A stretch of DNA of 28,453 nt from the UHGV virus genome UHGV-0259231. One strand, written 5' to 3'. Shown here piece after piece: positions 1,311-16,147 of this stretch. How positions within the stretch are numbered: the stretch's first letter is position 1; every line of letters begins with the position of its first letter. The notes under the pieces are model-generated. The model searched no databases, had not been told where the DNA came from, and worked only from the letters and a program-made list of their open reading frames with translations. Source of the stretch: a virus. The translations under genes and the position numbers were made by a program.

Positions 1311-2351
1311 TTATTTAGACGCAAGCGCCGCCTCAATTGCAGATAATCTTTGTCTTAATTCTGCGTTTTCTTCTTCCAGTGCTGTTATTCTGTCGTCTGA
1401 CTCTCTGGCTACCTGAACAAGCAAGCCAGTAACACCAGAATAATCTACTGTGTAATAACGTTCACCTTCTTCACCTTCCGATCCGCTTGCACCGTCCTGA
1501 TATTTCATTGCGGAACCTACAACTTCTGGGATTGCTTCCAGAGCTTCCTGTGCAATGACACCAGCATAGGGCATACCGTTTTCTTTAAGCGTGTATGTAT
1601 AGCCGTTCATTTTACGGATGCGGTCGGTTGCATTATCGATCACCTGAATGTTGTCTTTCAGATCCCGGTCGGAATGCTGGTTAAATGCGGTGGCATGACA
1701 TGCACCATTAACGCTTAACATATAGGTGTTATCGGTATTTTTCTGCGCATAGAACATATAAGCGCCACCATCAGCACCAACTTCATATACAACCGGACGG
1801 GTAGAGTTACCCCACAAACTAGTAGTAGCGCCAGAATGAGCGGTTCCCTGTGTGTTGATTGTCATGGTTGACCCATGATTGGCATATTTGATTTGTAATG
1901 TGTCTGTGCAGTCAAACTTAATAAGCGCGTTACTTCCCCGCACACCATACGACATGAGACAGTTCCCCATCTTAAGGTAACCATCACTGCCTGGAAAAAT
2001 TAATGTTCCACCGTAAAGATCGCTAAAATCCCAAAAGATACCTTTTGTTCCATTGTGTGTGACAATCCTTGTCATTGTATCTTTTGTACCGTCAATATTT
2101 TTTCTAGTGTACATCTCACTATAAGCGTTTTCGGTTTCTCCTGTCTTATTTGACAAGTGAATCTTACCGCTAAATATAGTTCCAGTGGTCGGCAATGTCT
2201 TTTGATCATAGATTACATTGCAATAACTATTCCATGTTGTTTTATTGTCTACATATGATTTTGTTGCGTAGCTTCCTTGATCGTTTTTTAATTTGCTAAC
2301 GTCGGATTTTAGCGTTTTGATGTCTTCAGGAATTACTGTCGATGTAGCCAT
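1311..2351 (-). CDS. Tail fibre / receptor-binding protein with C-terminal intramolecular chaperone (peptidase S74-type) domain
   Basis: The C-terminal 110 aa (SDRDLKDNIQVI ... GVIAQEALEAIPEVV ... YYTVDYSGVTGLLVQVARE ... coiled coil) fit the auto-cleaving chaperone domain of endosialidase/L-shaped tail fibres. The N-terminal 230 aa are Ser/Thr/Gly/Asn-rich and beta-rich, and the DNA is visibly AT-rich. GGAAG Shine-Dalgarno upstream. Confidence 0.6.
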   Translation of the reverse strand: MATSTVIPEDIKTLKSDVSKLKNDQGSYATKSYVDNKTTWNSYCNVIYDQKTLPTTGTIFSGKIHLSNKTGETENAYSEMYTRKNIDGTKDTMTRIVTHNGTKGIFWDFSDLYGGTLIFPGSDGYLKMGNCLMSYGVRGSNALIKFDCTDTLQIKYANHGSTMTINTQGTAHSGATTSLWGNSTRPVVYEVGADGGAYMFYAQKNTDNTYMLSVNGACHATAFNQHSDRDLKDNIQVIDNATDRIRKMNGYTYTLKENGMPYAGVIAQEALEAIPEVVGSAMKYQDGASGSEGEEGERYYTVDYSGVTGLLVQVARESDDRITALEEENAELRQRLSAIEAALASK

Positions 2352-4895: not shown

Positions 4896-5495
4896 TCAGA
4901 ATTTATAACCGACACCCACGATGAAACCGTCAGTGCGCCAGTCACCACTGCCGGAGCCTTCATAAGCAATATCAATGGCCACGGATTCGGTCGGGTTAAA
5001 CTGCACGCCAGCTCCCCACGCCAGAGACGTGTTGCTGTGGCGACCGTCATCACTTCCGGTCAGCACATCGTGCGTTTTCCCCTTGTTGTCAGTTACGCGG
5101 AGATAATCCCCGGAGAACGTCGAAACACGGCTGTAAGCCACACCTGCCATCGCATAAGCACTGAACCATTCATTCACGCGTACAGATGGCCCCGCCATCA
5201 TGCTGAACCAGCGGTTACGCACTGAATCTTCATGCCAGCGGGTATCGCTGTAATGCGTTTTTTGCTCATCTTTGGCATTGGCATAACTGAATGACGTCAC
5301 CAGCCCCAGCGTGTCCGTAAATTCATAACGGTATTTCACGTTAATGCCCTTCAGGTCATCACTGCCTGGCATATCAGTATGGGTCTGAAGATACCCGGCG
5401 CTTAGTGTGGACTGATGCTCTGCTGCGCTCGCTGGCGTACCAGCGGCAACCAGCCAGACTACTGCGGACAGAATAACAGCACATAATTTACGCAT
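4896..5495 (-). CDS. lom: Lom outer-membrane protein (Ail/Lom family) with signal peptide
   Basis: Translation is near-identical to lambda Lom as remembered (…STLSAGY…GINVKYRYEFTDTLGLVTSFSY … ends GFIVGVGYKF). N-terminal signal peptide present. Confidence 0.9.
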   Translation of the reverse strand: MRKLCAVILSAVVWLVAAGTPASAAEHQSTLSAGYLQTHTDMPGSDDLKGINVKYRYEFTDTLGLVTSFSYANAKDEQKTHYSDTRWHEDSVRNRWFSMMAGPSVRVNEWFSAYAMAGVAYSRVSTFSGDYLRVTDNKGKTHDVLTGSDDGRHSNTSLAWGAGVQFNPTESVAIDIAYEGSGSGDWRTDGFIVGVGYKF

Positions 5496-11088: not shown

Positions 11089-11429
11089 CAGTGAGTGACC
11101 TCTTCAAAGGTACAGTTAAAATCGGTATACATGGCATTATCCGAAATGCTCCACTCCCTGCAGACAACCCGGACAGTCCTGTTGTGTTTTGGCGGACGCC
11201 ACAAAAAAGCACGAATCCCGGCATGACGGGATAAAAAACTGTCCAGCGCGGCACGGGAATATTCATCTGTGACACGAAATACCGGTTTAAACGTTTTCAG
11301 ATCCGCATTCAGACCACCAGCCCGTCGCTGTTCATATCCGTCACCAAACTTTACCGTAATAACTGATGGCTTTCGTGTCGTCTCCATCCCCTCACGGGGG
11401 ATCCAGTTAAAAACTTCAGGCTCAGGCAC
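11088..11429 (-). CDS. M: Minor tail protein M
   Basis: ...FNWIPREGME...VKFGDGYEQRRAGGLNADLKTF... aligns with lambda gpM (FRWKVKPGMD...VRFGDGYSQRAPAGLNANLKTY). Start is uncertain: GTG at 11429 has a GGAGGA Shine-Dalgarno; ATG alternatives are at 11444 and 11387. Confidence 0.8.
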   Translation of the reverse strand: MPEPEVFNWIPREGMETTRKPSVITVKFGDGYEQRRAGGLNADLKTFKPVFRVTDEYSRAALDSFLSRHAGIRAFLWRPPKHNRTVRVVCREWSISDNAMYTDFNCTFEEVTH

Positions 11430-14400
11430 TGTACAATCCTCCATCCCGACGCGATGACTGCATAATTGACACAACCCTGCTGTCGATCAGATCCACCAGT
11501 CCCCTGGCTGAGCGCGCATCTATCTCGCCATTGCTCCCTTGATTCTGAATGCTGATGTGATACACGGGAGAATAAACAAATCCACCACCACCATTCACAT
11601 TTCCAATGGCCCTGACCCCAAGAGAGCCGTCCGCTGCCCGTGTCAGTGGCATGATTGCTTCAGGCCCGGCCTCGCCCATCAACCCGGCACCTTTCGCAAA
11701 AGCAAAATACGTCGGTGTATCCACAATAGTGTTACTGTAAGCACTCAGATTTGCCGATGTGTAAACACCACCTTTTGCGTTTGCCACTGCCCCCGAAATC
11801 CATCCGCCGACCGTACCAAGCCACCCTCCGGCACCGGAGAGTGATTTCAGTCCGTTAACAATGGCTGCATTCATCAGAATTTTTGAAACTTCCCGGAGAA
11901 CTGAACTCCCCCAGTTCCTCCAGTCCACAACATTCCCGGCCAGTGCATCGGAAATATTTGATACCAGCCCGTCCATCGTGGAAACGACAGCATCTGCCGC
12001 CTGTGAAGCATAATCGGTGGCACTGTCTGCCCAGTTGGTCAGTCCCTCCTGGAGTCCGGCATTCCAGTTATTACGTAAAGCATCGGCCTTTGCATAATAA
12101 TCCTGCTGATCGCTGAGACGCTCTTCCAGATATTTTTTATTCAGTTCTTTCTCCTGTTTCCACAGGGCTTCTTCAATTTCTCCGGCCTGATACTGTCTCA
12201 GCAGCTCGTTATTTTTCTGCTCAAACGCCTGCCGGATACTCCACATTTCCTGGAGTCGTTCACGCATCCGTGAGCCTTCACCATATCCCAGCAACTGCGC
12301 TTCGTCAGATGCCCGGGCACTGGCATTACTGTCCGCCAGACTGCTCTCATACGCAGCAAGCTGCTCACGAATCTTTTTCTGGTCGATGAGTGCTGCATTC
12401 TGCAAAAGCGTTTTTTTCTGCGCTTCTGACAGGGTTGATAATTCGCCCTGACTGACCTGATATTTCATCTTAGCCAGTTCAGTATTCTGCCCTGCCAGTG
12501 CTATTTGTTCTTTTTGCTGTTTAATCAGCCGTTTATAAATATCTTCTGTTTTTTCCGCTTCGGTCTTTTTATACGCTTTGGGTTTATTTGCCTGGTTATT
12601 TCGCCAGGCATCCAGTGAGTTATTGATATAATTCTGTCTGGCTGTCTGATACGCCTCTCCCACAAAGCCGAGATCATCCGCAGCATAACCCAGGCGGGCA
12701 CGCTCACGGGCTTCCCCCTTCAGGCGGGACAGAGCCAGTTCGCGCTCGCTGTTATTCAGTGCGGTCTGCTGTTTATCATCCAGGGTTGCCTGTGGTAGCC
12801 GTAACGGTACATTCACCAGCCCCTGTCGCTGCAGAAGTAATTCATTACCGAGCCCGAGAAGGCGATTAAACTCGGTATGCTGCCCATTCATGATCAACAG
12901 GGACTGATACGCTTTGTTTTGTTCCGCGGCCTGTTGACGGATCAACGCCACCCGTCGCTCCTCCAGCCCGGCAAGCACATCCTGAATGGATTGCGCTTTG
13001 CCCTGCATTTGTGTGAGACGGGACTGTTCAACTGCCAGTTGATTTGTTGCTTCTGCAAGCCCTTCTGTGACAGTTTTTACCGACGTCATGTGGTTAATCA
13101 TAAAACCGTTATCGGTTGTCCAGCCCGGGTTTGCCAGCACATACTGATAGCCAGCAATTTTTTCCTGTAAGGATTTAATCTTACTTTTCTGCTCGTCAAT
13201 TAACCTGTTTTGCTCATCAAGTGCCTGCCGCGTCTTTTCCTCATTATCTGACGCTTCAGGAAGCGACATTGCCGACGTTTTCTGGCGAATTTCGTCGATT
13301 GTTGCGGCATACTGGCGTGCAGATTCTCTGGCCTGCTCCTGATTCTGATACATCGTGTACCAGGCCGTCGCCCCCAGCATGACGAGTCCCGGCACACCAC
13401 CAACCAACCCCAGCGCACCACTTAACAGACGACTCCCCACTGACGTGACAGTATTCAGCGTTGTCTGTGCAGCTGTTCTGGCCGCAATATTACGGGTAAG
13501 TGACGCCTGGGCAGCTGTCAGCTTCGCTTCTGCTGCGGCCTGCCTTTCGGTACCGCGAGCAGCAACAACCGCCTGTTGCGCACGATAAACCGCCGCACGC
13601 GCCCTGGCGGTTGCTATCTGTGTCCCCCGAAGTTGCGCTTCAGCAAGAGCCACTTCGTTTCTGGCTGCAGTAATTAATCCGGCAGTTGCAGATCCAGCAG
13701 ACGACGCCATATTGCCAAAATATCGGGCTACCCCGACGGCAACCAGTGCGCCAGCTGCAGCAGCCACGGTATCAATATTGTCTGCAACACCATTCAACAC
13801 CCCGGTGAGTGTCTTTGTCACTCCGCTTGCCTCGTTCGCACCACCAACCCAGGCCATAAAGGCGTTTTCAACTTTGGTTGCAGAGGATGAAACAGTATCA
13901 GGCATTGCTGCATATTCATCACGCAACGCCCCAAGCTGACTAATCAGTGCAGGAACAACCTTATCGGCGGTCAGTTTTCCGTTATCCGCCATGGCCTTCA
14001 GATCCTTACGGGCAACACCCATTCCCGCAGCCAGCGCACGAATAACACGATCGCCGTTCTCATTCACAGAGTTAAATTCTTCACCGCGCAGCACTCCCTG
14101 CGCCAGTGCCTGACTGAACTGCGTGATCACCGAACTGGCTTCTGCTGTACTGGCACCGGATAATTTCAGGCCCGTGGAGATCGCCTCGGTGACTTTCAGT
14201 ACCTCCTCAGAACTGTAGCCATACTCCCGCATGGAAGCTGCAGAGCGGGCAAAAAGGCTGGCGTTATCAGAAAACGCCGTTCCCGTTCTCTGGCTGATTG
14301 CCATTAATTCACGTTGTGATACCTGAAAATCATCACTGGACTGTGAAGCCTGCTTCAGACGGGCATTTACTGAATTCCACTCATCGGCGAGAGAAATAAG

Positions 14401-14655
14401 ATGACCGGTAGCAAAAGCTCCGGCAAATGCCCCCGCCATATTCAGTGCCGAAGATTTAGCTGTATTTATCTGATCCGTCACTTCTGCCAGTGCACGCCGC
14501 ATTTCACGGGATGCAGCAGCGGACTGCCGGCCTCCGTTCTGCATGGTACGGTAGTAATCCTGCCCCATACGCGAAGCCCGGGAGATCTCTGACTGGAATG
14601 ACCGGGAATTTGCCGAGATTTTAATAATCAGTTCACGTAATGTCGCCACACTCAT
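11422..14655 (-). CDS. H: Tail tape measure protein (H-like)
   Basis: 1077 aa, Ala/Gln-rich and coiled-coil-rich, sitting between the G/T chaperone genes and M. Typical tape-measure position and composition. Confidence 0.9.
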   Translation of the reverse strand: MSVATLRELIIKISANSRSFQSEISRASRMGQDYYRTMQNGGRQSAAASREMRRALAEVTDQINTAKSSALNMAGAFAGAFATGHLISLADEWNSVNARLKQASQSSDDFQVSQRELMAISQRTGTAFSDNASLFARSAASMREYGYSSEEVLKVTEAISTGLKLSGASTAEASSVITQFSQALAQGVLRGEEFNSVNENGDRVIRALAAGMGVARKDLKAMADNGKLTADKVVPALISQLGALRDEYAAMPDTVSSSATKVENAFMAWVGGANEASGVTKTLTGVLNGVADNIDTVAAAAGALVAVGVARYFGNMASSAGSATAGLITAARNEVALAEAQLRGTQIATARARAAVYRAQQAVVAARGTERQAAAEAKLTAAQASLTRNIAARTAAQTTLNTVTSVGSRLLSGALGLVGGVPGLVMLGATAWYTMYQNQEQARESARQYAATIDEIRQKTSAMSLPEASDNEEKTRQALDEQNRLIDEQKSKIKSLQEKIAGYQYVLANPGWTTDNGFMINHMTSVKTVTEGLAEATNQLAVEQSRLTQMQGKAQSIQDVLAGLEERRVALIRQQAAEQNKAYQSLLIMNGQHTEFNRLLGLGNELLLQRQGLVNVPLRLPQATLDDKQQTALNNSERELALSRLKGEARERARLGYAADDLGFVGEAYQTARQNYINNSLDAWRNNQANKPKAYKKTEAEKTEDIYKRLIKQQKEQIALAGQNTELAKMKYQVSQGELSTLSEAQKKTLLQNAALIDQKKIREQLAAYESSLADSNASARASDEAQLLGYGEGSRMRERLQEMWSIRQAFEQKNNELLRQYQAGEIEEALWKQEKELNKKYLEERLSDQQDYYAKADALRNNWNAGLQEGLTNWADSATDYASQAADAVVSTMDGLVSNISDALAGNVVDWRNWGSSVLREVSKILMNAAIVNGLKSLSGAGGWLGTVGGWISGAVANAKGGVYTSANLSAYSNTIVDTPTYFAFAKGAGLMGEAGPEAIMPLTRAADGSLGVRAIGNVNGGGGFVYSPVYHISIQNQGSNGEIDARSARGLVDLIDSRVVSIMQSSRRDGGLYSA

Positions 14656-14663
14656 TCTCCGGA

Positions 14664-14687
14664 CGAAAAAAAACCGCCGAAGCGGTT
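14664..14687 (-). terminator. Terminator-like hairpin between the T ORF and H
   Basis: AACCGC/GCGGTT stem with a 4-nt loop, followed on the minus strand by eight T, then the GGAGA Shine-Dalgarno and ATG of H. Confidence 0.4.
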
Positions 14688-14695
14688 ATGTTGAC

Positions 14696-15007
14696 TCACT
14701 GAGACACTATTAAAAGCGCGTTTTCCAGTCCGGCAAATGGATCTGATACGCCTTCTGTCTGCTCCTTCTCCCACTGAAGAAGCGCATCATTCAGTGGCAC
14801 TTTGACCCCCTGCGCACCGTAAACAGCTGAAACAATCTGGGCAGCCCGGATATCAGCCCGTTCGTCCCCCAGCGGACTGAACCTGTCAAATTCTGCCCAC
14901 ATCATGATTTCTGATGCTGACATTTCCCGGCGTAACTCTGACAATGTGCGCCCCATCCTGAGCGCCAGCATCATCAGAAAACGCATCCCCGGAAGCGCTA
15001 CTTTTTT
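14696..15007 (-). CDS. T: T domain of the tail assembly chaperone G-T fusion, reached only by a -1 programmed frameshift from G
   Basis: This ORF lies in the -1 frame relative to G (stop-codon low coordinates 14998 and 14696 differ by 1 mod 3) and is entered at the A-AAA-AAG heptamer. The conceptual fusion reads ...GEVKK-VALPGMRFLMMLALRMGRTL... Confidence 0.7.
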   Translation of the reverse strand, partial: KKVALPGMRFLMMLALRMGRTLSELRREMSASEIMMWAEFDRFSPLGDERADIRAAQIVSAVYGAQGVKVPLNDALLQWEKEQTEGVSDPFAGLENALLIVSQ

Positions 15008-15369
15008 TTAACCTCGCCGGCATCACTGATCAGTTCCAGAGACTGCCGAAGAAGCCGCGCATGCACCGGACCATACACGGCAATCACCTGTTCACGATCA
15101 TCCTCTGAAAATACAGGTTGCAGTCCGGTATCACACAGAACATCAATGAACAGTTCAACATCTGCCTCCAGATTTCGGCGGGCGCGCTCCGCAACGGATA
15201 ACGGTGTCTCATCATCTTTTGCTTTAACGATCTCCTGCCAGCGCAACCAGGCTTCTGCAGAAGGTTCCCGTAATACAACCGTTGCTCCCTCCCATTCAGG
15301 CACATCAACAGTTTTATGGCGAAACCCCGACATCGTTGCCAGTGCCAGATTGCGGATATTTTTAGTCAT
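14998..15369 (-). CDS. G: Tail assembly chaperone G
   Basis: Small acidic ORF between the major tail protein gene and the tape measure gene, ending in GTT AAA AAA AAG TAG. ATG at 15369 has a GAGGA Shine-Dalgarno; the ORF-track start at 15384 lacks one. Confidence 0.75.
   Translation of the reverse strand: MTKNIRNLALATMSGFRHKTVDVPEWEGATVVLREPSAEAWLRWQEIVKAKDDETPLSVAERARRNLEADVELFIDVLCDTGLQPVFSEDDREQVIAVYGPVHARLLRQSLELISDAGEVKKK
15001..15009 (-). promoter_or_regulatory. Programmed -1 ribosomal frameshift slippery site (A AAA AAG)
   Basis: Plus-strand run CTTTTTTTTA gives AAAAAAAAG on the coding strand, in the last codons of G. The same XXXYYYZ heptamer is used by dnaX. Confidence 0.7.
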
Positions 15370-15383
15370 CACATCTATCCTCA

Positions 15384-16088
15384 TTAACTGACGGTAACAG
15401 TGCAGGAAGTGGAGGTCACCTTGTTAACAGGGCTTGCTGAATCAGAAATCTCGCAGGTATACGCACCGGCATCACCTGATGCTGCTGATGCCTTACTGAA
15501 TGTTGCCGCCGTCTGTCCGGAAACAGGAGAACTACCTTTCTTCCAGACATAAGAATAAGGCGGCACACCACCGGCAGCCTCAACCACCATTTCGAGTTTC
15601 GCTCCGGCAGAAACCTGCAGCGTGCTGTTTAAATCGACCTTCACTTTCAGCGGCTCTGTCGTCAGCACAGGTTTACCTTTCAGGCGCAGGGAAAACGTTG
15701 CAGCCACAACACCATTGGTTCCTGCAGACCAGGTATGCTGACGCACCTCTGCCATAAAGGTAAATCCGTTTCCTGACGGAAAAATAACTTTAAAGCCATA
15801 CGTGGTGTCATTGTCATAGGCACTGCGCAACGCGTTCTGGGCAGCATTGAGGTAAAAGTTGCCTGACATGGAAATCTCTGACGCGGCACCAAGACCGTTA
15901 ATATTTTCCTGCTCAACAGAACACAGCGTGGTGACATCAATATCCTGCTTTTGTCCTGCGGTAAACTGCACCTCTTTGATTGTACAGCTCAGACCAAGAT
16001 AGCTGGCAGAATCCAGGGTTTCTGCTGTTACCGGTGCAGACGAAATCATAATTTTCGTCAGTTGCGAACGCTCAAAATTAGAGGACAT
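15384..16088 (-). CDS. Major tail protein with C-terminal Ig-like domain
   Basis: Sits immediately upstream of G/T. The C-terminal 90 aa are Ig-like (…PPYSYVWKKGSSPVSGQTAATF…GAYTCEISD…). ATG at 16088 (MSSNFERSQ…) is preceded by an AGGAGA Shine-Dalgarno; the longer ORF-track start would run through the upstream hairpin. Confidence 0.85.
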   Translation of the reverse strand: MSSNFERSQLTKIMISSAPVTAETLDSASYLGLSCTIKEVQFTAGQKQDIDVTTLCSVEQENINGLGAASEISMSGNFYLNAAQNALRSAYDNDTTYGFKVIFPSGNGFTFMAEVRQHTWSAGTNGVVAATFSLRLKGKPVLTTEPLKVKVDLNSTLQVSAGAKLEMVVEAAGGVPPYSYVWKKGSSPVSGQTAATFSKASAASGDAGAYTCEISDSASPVNKVTSTSCTVTVS

Positions 16089-16100
16089 ACTCGTCTCCTG

Positions 16101-16127
16101 AAAATAAAAAACCCGCCAGCGGCGGGT
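16101..16127 (-). terminator. Terminator-like hairpin between the tail completion gene and the major tail protein gene
   Basis: ACCCGCC/GGCGGGT stem, followed on the minus strand by TTTTTTATTTT. Confidence 0.4.
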
Positions 16128-16147
16128 GGGTAAAATCATTAACGACC

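What the first reader, a model, noticed from the sequence alone, without database searches (positions are those of the whole stretch)
14696..15369. Conserved G / G-T programmed -1 frameshift with an A AAA AAG slippery heptamer
The chaperone ORF ends …GTT AAA AAA AAG TAG, and the downstream ORF is open in the -1 frame through this site, so slipping gives a fusion …GEVKK-VALPGMRFLMML… This is the tail-assembly frameshift conserved across long-tailed phages, here using the dnaX-type heptamer rather than lambda's G GGA AAG.
Basis: partly seen in the sequence, partly recalled or inferred. Interest (0 to 1): 0.5.

Follow-up and report, generated by a model that had tools for sequence, protein, structure and literature searches.

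The report
Phage tail-chaperone G/GT frameshift site
This is the well-known programmed -1 ribosomal frameshift that lets a lambdoid/HK97-like E. coli prophage make a small amount of a fused G-T tail-assembly chaperone alongside the shorter G protein; it is real, but ordinary and already described for this gene family.

Summary
On the minus strand, gene G (15369-14998) ends ...GTT AAA AAA AAG TAG. The T reading frame is -1 relative to G. It is closed by TAA just before the A-run and open from there to 14696, so the two frames overlap only across the heptamer A AAA AAG (15007-15001). G is an HK97 gp13-type chaperone (PF06222; PDB 2OB9). T is a lambda-T-type domain (PF06223). They sit between the tail-tube and tape-measure genes. 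The predicted 224-aa fusion matches a fused-protein PHROG profile in one continuous stretch. In 72 species-level relatives, T is in the -1 frame in 69, and all 69 carry an in-register A_AAG in the overlap (about 5 expected by chance). Of these, 44 use A_AAA_AAG, so this heptamer is the family's majority form and not a peculiarity. The T-frame peptide is conserved right from the shift site, and some relatives have no Met there, which excludes independent initiation. No upstream Shine-Dalgarno motif or downstream structure is conserved. HK97 gp14 is annotated as a -1 frameshift product, and published reporter assays on HK97-like prophage chaperones gave 6-7%. Minor additions: the A8 run could add transcriptional slippage, and the adjacent TAG may help. 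Verdict: already known, low interest.

The parts
14998..15369 (-). Gene G: tail assembly chaperone, 123 aa plus TAG stop (HK97 gp13 type)
   Evidence: Pfam PF06222 Phage_TAC_1, E 2.8e-58, full-length. phrog_344 tail assembly chaperone. PDB 2OB9 (HK97 gp13), E 4.6e-49. RefSeq and GenBank records annotate this start. GAGGA lies 8 nt upstream of ATG 15369.
15001..15007 (-). Slippery heptamer A AAA AAG (the last 6 A of an A8 run at 15009-15002, plus G 15001); site of the -1 shift
   Evidence: It is the only in-register site in the 7-nt overlap of the two frames. The core TTAAAAAAAAGTAG is invariant in 69 of 71 close relatives. In-register A_AAG is present in 69 of 69 species-level relatives with T in the -1 frame.
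15008..15010 (-). TAA stop in the -1 (T) frame, immediately 5' of the heptamer; sets the upstream limit of the shift zone
   Evidence: Translation of the T frame reads ...CRRG*KKVALPGM; junction analysis.
14998..15000 (-). 0-frame TAG stop of G, directly 3' of the AAG codon (context TAG-C); possible 'shifty stop' contributor
   Evidence: A stop directly follows AAG in 44 of 69 relatives (27 TAA, 17 TAG, 0 TGA) and in 13 of 13 loci whose P-site codon cannot re-pair (Fisher p = 0.003, not corrected for phylogeny).
14696..15007 (-). T segment read in the -1 frame after the shift (KK-VALPGMRFLMML...IVSQ plus TGA stop); C-terminal part of the G-T fusion
   Evidence: Pfam PF06223 Phage_tail_T, E 3.5e-19. 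phrog_337 and phrog_14766. The T-frame peptide K-V-x-x-P-x-x-x-F-L-M-x-L-A-L-R is conserved right from the shift site in relatives.
14696..15369 (-). Whole G-T recoded gene: 224-aa fusion protein made by the -1 shift at 15007-15001
   Evidence: The fusion matches phrog_14766 in one stretch, residues 1-220 against profile positions 1-220 of 224, E 3.4e-92. HK97 gp14 is annotated as a joined CDS 'translated due to a -1 frameshift'. In L149 a natural A9 variant reads as an in-frame fusion.
15384..16139 (-). Upstream neighbour: major tail tube protein with a C-terminal Ig-like domain
   Evidence: phrog_158 major tail protein, E 9.7e-110; Pfam Ig_2, Phage_TTP_11 and Phage_tail_2.
11422..14655 (-). 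Downstream neighbour: tail length tape measure protein
   Evidence: Pfam Phage_HK97_TLTM E 1e-93, TMP_3, Tape_meas_lam_C; phrog_339.
14662..14687 (-). Intrinsic-terminator-like hairpin (AACCGC-TTCG-GCGGTT plus a T-run) in the 40-nt gap between T and the tape measure gene
   Evidence: Terminator scan. The exact hairpin is present in 72 of 83 close relatives. HK97 has annotated terminators and a moron at the equivalent position.

Best explanation
This is the G/GT programmed -1 ribosomal frameshift of a lambdoid (HK97-like) siphovirus prophage of E. coli. Most ribosomes translate G (123 aa) and terminate at TAG 15000-14998. A small fraction, probably a few percent, slip one base back on A AAA AAG (15007-15001). 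This works because E. coli's single tRNA-Lys pairs better with AAA than with AAG. These ribosomes then continue in the -1 frame through T and make a 224-aa G-T fusion (...GEVKKK-VALPGMRFLMM...). By analogy with lambda, the G parts of both proteins coat the tape-measure protein encoded just downstream. The rare T domain recruits the tail-tube protein encoded just upstream, so the fixed G:GT ratio set by the slip frequency drives correct tail assembly. Shown here: the ORF geometry, protein family membership, gene order, family-wide conservation of the -1 arrangement and of the in-register A_AAG, T-frame coding from the shift site, and the absence of an independent start. Inferred: the efficiency, the biochemical roles, and which tRNA movement occurs (tandem P/A-site slippage, or P-site slippage while TAG sits in the A site).
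For: Sequence and frames. Families: G is PF06222, T is PF06223, flanked by tail tube and tape measure genes; the rest of the window is a complete lambdoid structural module. G matches the HK97 gp13 structure 2OB9 (PMC9603447). The 64%-identical HK97 pair gp13/gp14 is annotated as a -1 frameshift join, and mEp234 carries the same note. The fusion matches the fused-protein profile phrog_14766 straight through the junction. Survey: T is in the -1 frame in all 12 annotated relatives where both genes could be placed and in 69 of 72 species-level loci. The three exceptions are an upstream indel in G, or an A-run one base shorter or longer; the A9 case is an in-frame fusion with the predicted junction. 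All 69 have an in-register A_AAG, against 5.4 expected. The spacing from the shift-site Lys to the conserved F-L-M-x-L-A-L-R motif is nearly constant, and L109 and L116 have no Met there. Literature: G:GT of about 30:1 and the roles of the G and T domains in lambda (PMC5009743). A_AAA_AAG is highly shift-prone in E. coli (PMC5009743; PMC4066793). An HK97-like prophage tail chaperone cluster was measured at 6-7% frameshifting (PMC3711429). Cluster A_AAA_AAG_25 'tail assembly chaperone [true]' is listed in E. coli prophages (PMC4066793 Table S4).
Against: No protein-level or reporter data exist for this exact locus, and none of the public records I opened for it annotate a joined CDS. The bare A_AAA_AAG motif gives only about 0.3% in a reporter without stimulators (PMC4066793 Table S3). 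I found no conserved stimulator: SD-like motifs are inconsistent and no consensus downstream structure exists. What raises the rate to a useful level here is therefore not established. The A8 run means part of the fusion could come from transcriptional slippage, which gives the identical protein.
Confidence: 0.9

Rival explanations
1. Transcriptional slippage: RNA polymerase adds one extra A while copying the A8 run (15009-15002). This yields a minority of A9 mRNAs in which G and T are in one frame, and standard translation of those mRNAs gives exactly the same 224-aa fusion. As the main mechanism this is unlikely. As a minor additive contributor at this particular A8 locus it is plausible (perhaps 30-40% likely to contribute measurably).
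For: The run is 8 A long. A9/T9 is the length at which slippage is efficient and selected against, and A8 is productive in some organisms' IS elements (PMC1088944; PMC5009743 section 43). The A8 length is conserved in 69 of 71 close relatives. A natural A9 allele (L149) shows that the inserted-A reading gives an intact fusion.
Against: Across the family the A-run before G has length 3 (16 loci), 4 (9), 6 (2), 7 (33), 8 (8) or 9 (1). At lengths 3 and 4, polymerase slippage is implausible. Yet every one of the 69 loci keeps AAG as the 0-frame codon preceded by A. Polymerase slippage has no need for that codon register or for the terminal G; both point to a ribosomal mechanism. 8 is below the 9-nt threshold reported for most genomes (PMC1088944).
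Confidence: 0.06
2. T is made as a separate protein, either by independent initiation or by termination-reinitiation at ATG 14986 (12 nt after the G stop) or at the conserved F-L-M methionine. On this view the heptamer is incidental.
For: ATG 14986 exists and opens a 96-aa ORF. Public annotations call T as a stand-alone CDS from this or a nearby ATG. The short distance from the G stop would permit reinitiation in principle.
Against: No Shine-Dalgarno motif lies at a functional distance; only GGGG abuts the ATG. ATG 14986 is not conserved: it is Val in the HK97 type and Thr in many others. L109 and L116 have no Met in the first 20 T-frame residues, and L163 has none before residue 19. The T-frame residues upstream of any Met (K-V-x-x-P-G) are conserved with constant spacing from the shift site. 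This model cannot explain in-register A_AAG in 69 of 69 overlap zones. In lambda, T is described only as part of gpGT (PMC5009743).
Confidence: 0.03
3. The split is an artefact or decay product: an originally single G-T gene broken by a homopolymer indel, either a sequencing error or a pseudogenised prophage.
For: Homopolymer runs do vary in this set: 2 of 71 close relatives have A7, L120 is one A shorter than its relatives, and L149 has A9.
Against: The same A8 two-frame arrangement is found in 69 of 71 independent close relatives and at 100% identity in many complete E. coli genomes. The -1 arrangement holds across genera with different heptamers. HK97, a viable phage, has the same architecture.
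Confidence: 0.01

Closest known systems
Phage HK97 gp13 / gp14 (tail assembly chaperone and its -1 frameshift extension; AF069529; PDB 2OB9 for gp13)
   Same: Same Pfam families for both halves (PF06222 plus PF06223). About 64% and 63% amino-acid identity. Same position between the tail-tube and HK97-type tape-measure genes. T is in the -1 frame. gp14 is annotated as a joined CDS 'translated due to a -1 frameshift'.
   Different: HK97's in-register site is G GAA AAG, inside a 52-nt overlap, with the G stop 15 nt further on. The window has A AAA AAG inside a 7-nt overlap, with TAG immediately adjacent. HK97 also carries a moron (gp15) between T and the tape-measure gene, where the window has only a terminator-like hairpin.
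Phage lambda G / G-T frameshift (Levin, Hendrix & Casjens 1993; Xu, Hendrix & Duda 2004, 2013, 2014, as cited in PMC5009743)
   Same: Same gene order (V, G, T, H). Same -1 shift near the end of G. Same T-domain family, PF06223. Same A-site codon AAG read by tRNA-Lys. Same presumed function: G and GT at about 30:1, neither present in virions.
   Different: Lambda uses G GGA AAG. Its gpG belongs to a different Pfam family (PF06894), and tblastn found no significant similarity between the window proteins and lambda. The lambda-type heptamer does occur inside the window's own family, for example in mEp506 and L153-L160.
E. coli prophage tail-chaperone clusters already catalogued as -1 PRF: A_AAA_AAG_25 / ECs1801 (Sharma et al. 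2014, PMC4066793) and the HK97-like 'phage tail assembly chaperone' cluster (Antonov et al. 2013, PMC3711429)
   Same: Same host, same gene type and same heptamer. Marked a true frameshift case. 6-7% measured for two genes of the HK97-like cluster. The predicted hairpin was scored as no better than background, matching my result.
   Different: I did not verify that this exact prophage lineage was among the genes in those clusters or among the two tested. The Stx-phage-type relative, which carries the same A AAA AAG TAG, is about 67% identical in G.
E. coli dnaX gamma/tau frameshift cassette
   Same: Identical heptamer A AAA AAG, decoded by the same tRNA-Lys (PMC5009743).
   Different: dnaX shifts at about 50% thanks to an upstream SD-like element about 10 nt away and a downstream stem-loop, and its shift product is the shorter protein. 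Here the SD-like GAGGT lies 3 nt upstream and is not conserved. No downstream structure is conserved. The expected efficiency is a few percent, and the shift product is the longer protein.

Membership tests
G/GT tail-assembly-chaperone programmed -1 frameshift of long-tailed phages | Two small ORFs located between the major tail (tube) gene and the tape measure gene | tested here: met
   Tail tube 15384-16139, G 15369-14998, T to 14696, tape measure 14655-11422.
G/GT tail-assembly-chaperone programmed -1 frameshift of long-tailed phages | The second ORF is in the -1 frame, overlaps the 3' end of the first, and lacks its own conserved start or SD | tested here: met
   Searches give the -1 frame and 7-nt overlap. 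There is no SD for ATG 14986. The ATG is not conserved, and some relatives lack any Met near the junction.
G/GT tail-assembly-chaperone programmed -1 frameshift of long-tailed phages | A slippery sequence in the correct register inside the overlap | tested here: met
   A AAA AAG at 15007-15001, with 0-frame codons AAA AAG.
G/GT tail-assembly-chaperone programmed -1 frameshift of long-tailed phages | The arrangement is conserved among homologues despite sequence divergence | tested here: met
   All 12 annotated relatives where both genes could be placed. 69 of 71 close relatives keep A8. 69 of 72 species-level loci have T in the -1 frame, all with in-register A_AAG against 5.4 expected.
G/GT tail-assembly-chaperone programmed -1 frameshift of long-tailed phages | Two proteins, G and G-T, are actually produced at a fixed low ratio (about 3-7% fusion) | not testable with these tools
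   Requires a western blot, reporter assay or mass spectrometry. Relatives: lambda about 30:1 (PMC5009743); HK97-like prophage genes 6-7% (PMC3711429).
G/GT tail-assembly-chaperone programmed -1 frameshift of long-tailed phages | Both products are required for tail assembly and are absent from mature virions | not testable with these tools
   Genetic and biochemical property, known for lambda (PMC5009743).
Pfam PF06222 Phage_TAC_1 (HK97 gp13-type chaperone) | Full-length match above the gathering score | tested here: met
   195.7 bits against a cut-off of 25, profile positions 1-124 of 124. HK97 gp13 scores 203 bits. PDB 2OB9, E 4.6e-49.
Pfam PF06223 Phage_tail_T (lambda minor tail protein T domain) | Match above the gathering score in the -1 frame segment | tested here: met
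   69.4 bits against a cut-off of 25.9. Lambda T itself scores 54.1 bits against the same model.
Pfam PF06894 Phage_TAC_2 (lambda gpG family) | Sequence match of the G ORF to the lambda gpG model | tested here: not met
   The window's G hits only PF06222. Lambda G hits only PF06894. tblastn found no significant similarity to lambda. The window works like lambda G but is not in its sequence family.
dnaX-type frameshift cassette | A_AAA_AAG heptamer | tested here: met
dnaX-type frameshift cassette | SD-like stimulator about 10-14 nt upstream of the shift site | tested here: not met
   The only SD-like motif (GAGGT) ends 3 nt before the heptamer. In relatives, SD-like motifs are present in 37 of 70 loci at spacings from 0 to 15 nt and absent from the rest.
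dnaX-type frameshift cassette | Conserved stem-loop about 5-8 nt downstream | tested here: not met
   The window's downstream 100 nt fold somewhat better than shuffles (z -2.5, 5 of 200 shuffles as good; the stem starts 2 nt after the heptamer). RNAalifold on 30 relatives finds no consensus pairs. Sharma et al. scored the equivalent hairpin at background level.
Programmed transcriptional slippage site | Homopolymer A/T run of at least 9 | tested here: not met
   The run is A8. Family run lengths are mostly 3-7. The 9-nt threshold comes from PMC1088944, which notes that A8 can be productive in some organisms, so a minor contribution is not excluded.

The most novel reading that the evidence does not exclude
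In this branch of the family, the 0-frame stop codon directly 3' of AAG (here TAG-C) is a functional part of the recoding signal, a 'shifty stop'. A substantial share of shifts would then occur by single P-site slippage of peptidyl-tRNA-Lys on A_AAG while the ribosome waits for release factor, rather than by dnaX-style tandem slippage. That would explain how 13 related loci manage with P-site codons that cannot re-pair (GCA, GTA, GAA), all 13 of them with an adjacent stop. It could explain why adjacent stops are TAA or TAG (27 and 17) and never TGA. It might also account for how a motif giving about 0.3% on its own reaches the few percent needed without any conserved RNA structure. At this locus the A8 run might add a transcriptional-slippage component, so that two mechanisms together set the G:GT ratio.
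Probability: 0.3. Interest if true: 0.3.

Novelty: already known. Interest (0 to 1): 0.1.

Why it matters
The direct value is for annotation. This prophage type is present in 902 of 5,426 complete E. coli genomes. In every public record I opened, T is called as a free-standing ORF from an arbitrary internal ATG, or is even split into pieces, and the 224-aa G-T fusion is missing. Biologically it adds nothing new: the G/GT frameshift, its purpose and the use of A_AAA_AAG in enterobacterial prophage chaperones are all published. One modest point is worth a specialist's attention. It is the family-wide pattern of an adjacent TAA or TAG stop codon, which always accompanies non-canonical P-site codons. 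This suggests a testable stimulator for a recoding site that otherwise has none.

Tried and rejected
(1) I first assumed PF06222 was lambda gpG's family. Scanning lambda G showed it is PF06894, so I withdrew the claim that G is a lambda-G homologue at the sequence-family level.

(2) tblastn of the window's G and T against the lambda locus gave nothing significant.

(3) NCBIfam has no model hitting G, T or the fusion.

(4) A dnaX-like upstream SD was rejected: the spacing is wrong in the window and it is not conserved.

(5) A downstream stimulatory hairpin or pseudoknot: the window alone gives z = -2.5, but there is no consensus structure in 30 relatives, and the published assessment of the equivalent hairpin is at background level. 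I treat it as unsupported.

(6) The search for related loci on genome contigs failed with the 9-sequence alignment because no stretch was conserved enough. It worked after I dropped the Bordetella and Burkholderia sequences, so the species-level survey is biased towards Enterobacterales and relatives.

(7) The viral-contig scan returned mostly near-identical loci. These were useful only for the A-run length census.

(8) Xu et al. 2004 (Mol Cell) is not held in the library, so its list of phages and heptamers could not be checked directly.

(9) I did not run structure prediction or the large protein-database searches, because the family assignment was already unambiguous.

Full report
**What is in the sequence**

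The genes of this region lie on the minus strand. An ORF starting at ATG 15369 is preceded by GAGGA 8 nt upstream. A longer version from ATG 15384 is not supported by homologues or by public annotation. This ORF encodes 123 aa and ends ...GGC GAG GTT AAA AAA AAG TAG, with the stop at 15000-14998.

The reading frame one base back (-1) contains TAA at 15010-15008. It is then open through AAA AAA GTA GCG CTT CCG GGG ATG ... to TGA at 14698-14696. The two frames therefore overlap only over AAAAAAG (15007-15001), which in the G frame reads A AAA AAG. Any -1 slip inside the A-run gives one product...GEVKKK-VALPGMRFLMML..., 224 aa long. The observation and its coordinates are otherwise confirmed.

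**What the proteins are**

- The upstream ORF is a full-length member of Pfam PF06222 (Phage_TAC_1, E 2.8e-58).
- The downstream segment carries PF06223 (minor tail protein T, E 3.5e-19).
- They sit between a tail-tube protein with an Ig-like C-terminus (15384-16139) and an HK97-type tape measure protein (11422-14655).
- The rest of the window is a complete lambdoid structural module: HNH, small and large terminase, portal, protease, HK97-fold capsid, connectors, M, L, K, I, J, Lom and tail fibre.
- G matches the crystal structure 2OB9 (E 4.6e-49), which is HK97 gp13 (PMC9603447).

I had first assumed that PF06222 was lambda gpG's family. A direct scan showed that lambda G is PF06894, whereas lambda T shares PF06223 with the window's T. 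G is therefore an HK97 gp13-type chaperone. It is analogous to lambda G but is not in its sequence family.

**Is the fusion real?**

The predicted 224-aa fusion matches PHROG 14766, a 224-position profile of annotated fused proteins. The match is one uninterrupted stretch, 1-220, with E 3.4e-92. HK97's homologous pair (64% and 63% identity) is annotated as gp13 plus a joined CDS gp14 'translated due to a -1 frameshift'. mEp234 carries the same note.

**Where the locus occurs**

The locus is a common E. coli prophage. It is found in 902 of 5,426 complete genomes, many at 100% identity, and in phages Evi, phi467 and the vB_Eco-...R series. None of the records I opened annotates the join. T is called from different internal ATGs, or is split.

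**Conservation**

- In all 12 annotated relatives where both genes could be placed, from E. coli to Burkholderia, T is in the -1 frame.
- Among 71 close relatives, the core TTAAAAAAAAGTAG is invariant in 69 although neighbouring codons vary. Two have A7.
- In 72 loci from different species, T is in the -1 frame in 69.
- The three exceptions are an upstream indel in G (L106), an A-run one base shorter (L120), and an A9 run that fuses G and T in frame as ...IAKKKVTQPGMQFLM... (L149). The last is a natural allele that reads exactly as the predicted frameshift product does.
- All 69 carry an in-register A_AAG in the overlap zone. The split is 44 A_AAA_AAG, 5 G_GGA_AAG (lambda's heptamer), 7 G_GAA_AAG (HK97 type) and 13 with P-site codons that cannot re-pair.
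- From the background frequency of in-register A_AAG in G bodies (49 of 7,245 codons), 5.4 loci would be expected to have one by chance. Among the 29 loci with at most four candidate positions, 0.5 would be expected and all 29 have it.

The 'dnaX-type' heptamer is therefore the majority form in this family, not a departure.

**Independent start for T?**

ATG 14986 has no Shine-Dalgarno motif at a working distance; only GGGG abuts it. The T-frame peptide is conserved from the shift-site lysine onwards as K-V-x-x-P-G/L-x-x-F-L-M-x-L-A-L-R, with almost constant spacing. The Met at 14986 is Val or Thr in many relatives. L109 and L116 have no Met at all in the first 20 residues. Independent initiation or reinitiation cannot be the family's mechanism, and it would not explain the universal A_AAG.

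**Stimulators**

SD-like motifs upstream are present in 37 of 70 loci, at spacings from 0 to 15 nt. In the window, GAGGT ends 3 nt before the heptamer, which is not the roughly 10-nt spacing seen in dnaX.

The window's downstream 100 nt fold somewhat better than shuffles (z -2.5). However, RNAalifold finds no consensus pair in 30 relatives. Sharma et al. scored the hairpin of the equivalent E. coli prophage cluster at background level (ddG 0.020).

In their reporter, A_AAA_AAG and G_GGA_AAG are equally shifty: 0.29% and 0.28% without a stimulator, and 4.3% and 3.8% with the IS911 stimulator. Native HK97-like prophage chaperone genes gave 6-7% (PMC3711429), and lambda gives about 1:30 (PMC5009743). 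What lifts the native rate is therefore not established.

Two candidates emerge from the survey.

1. A stop codon directly follows AAG in 44 of 69 loci: 27 TAA, 17 TAG and no TGA, always in the contexts TAG-C or mostly TAA-A. It does so in 13 of 13 loci with a non-re-pairing P-site codon, against 32 of 50 canonical ones. Fisher p is 0.003-0.013, not corrected for shared ancestry. This fits P-site slippage of tRNA-Lys on A_AAG while the A site holds a stop, the 'shifty stop' of Weiss et al. 1987 as cited in PMC5009743. That review also notes that slow A-site decoding matters more for +1 than for -1 shifts. This is inference.
2. The A8 run could support some transcriptional slippage, which would give the identical protein. 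A9 is the usual threshold, and A8 is productive in some organisms (PMC1088944; PMC5009743). However, the family's run lengths are mostly 3-7, and its strict codon register points to the ribosome as the conserved mechanism.

**Verdict**

It is a standard member of the G/GT tail-chaperone frameshift system, in the HK97 gp13/gp14 sequence family. It uses a heptamer already catalogued and experimentally validated for E. coli prophage tail chaperones (PMC4066793 Table S4; PMC3711429).

Novelty: already known. Interest: low. The practical consequence is that public annotations of this very common prophage omit the fusion protein. The only mildly new point is the association with an adjacent stop codon, which is testable.

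Noticed in passing
window 14662-14687 (- strand): A terminator-like hairpin (AACCGC-TTCG-GCGGTT followed by a T-run) sits in the 40-nt gap between the T stop and the tape-measure start, inside what should be one late operon. The exact hairpin is present in 72 of 83 close relatives, with the T-run varying from 5 to 7. HK97 has a moron (gp15) flanked by annotated terminators at the same position, so this may be a moron remnant or a tolerated attenuator.
   Followed up: partly
L053 and L073 (position 1561); L120; L149: The A-run length is unstable. Two of 71 close relatives have A7, which puts T at +1. Serratia L120 is one A shorter than its relatives. 'Candidatus Symbiopectobacterium endolongispinus' L149 has A9, an in-frame G-T fusion. 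I could not tell sequencing errors from real alleles.
   Followed up: partly
L094-L165 junctions (species-level relatives): Stops directly after the shift-site AAG are TAA (27) or TAG (17) and never TGA, although GTG would also encode the conserved Val in the T frame. The next base is always C after TAG and nearly always A after TAA. All 13 loci with non-re-pairing P-site codons have an adjacent stop. This is not corrected for phylogeny.
   Followed up: partly
window 14696-15369, as annotated in ON470580.1, NZ_CP020509.1 and LR597642.1: Public annotations are inconsistent. T starts at different ATGs (equivalent to 14986 or 14974). One record splits the T region into two short CDSs. Some RefSeq copies name T 'DUF4035 domain-containing protein'. 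No record opened has a joined G-T CDS.
   Followed up: yes
window, 13 sites (for example 168-174, 277-283, 813-819, 21891-21897 and 24245-24251 on the - strand): AAAAAAG occurs 13 times in the window against 5.4 expected, and 0 of 100 shuffles reach 13. By my own count from the ORF start, the copy inside the large terminase ORF (21891-21897) reads AAA AAA G, which is not the -1 shift register. The other copies were not examined.
   Followed up: no
window 15369-15386 (- strand): There are two possible G starts. ATG 15384 overlaps the tail-tube stop as TAATG, a coupling arrangement. ATG 15369 has GAGGA 8 nt upstream. Homologues, Pfam coverage and public annotation favour 15369.
   Followed up: partly
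window 14649-14655 (- strand): The tape-measure start is ambiguous. ATG 14655 has GGAG only 1 nt upstream. GTG 14649, chosen by RefSeq, has better spacing.
   Followed up: no
window 14900-15000 (- strand): A long imperfect hairpin is predicted in the mRNA just downstream of the shift site (-36.4 kcal/mol, z -2.5), with a GC-rich core formed by the codons for L-A-L-R-M-G-R. It is not supported as a conserved structure.
   Followed up: yes
window 4896-5495 and 1311-2351 (- strand): There is a Lom/Ail outer-membrane protein gene (PF06316, E 5e-128) between J and the tail-fibre gene, as in lambda. A downstream ORF carries an endosialidase-chaperone (Peptidase_S74) domain. These are ordinary lambdoid cargo.
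   Followed up: no
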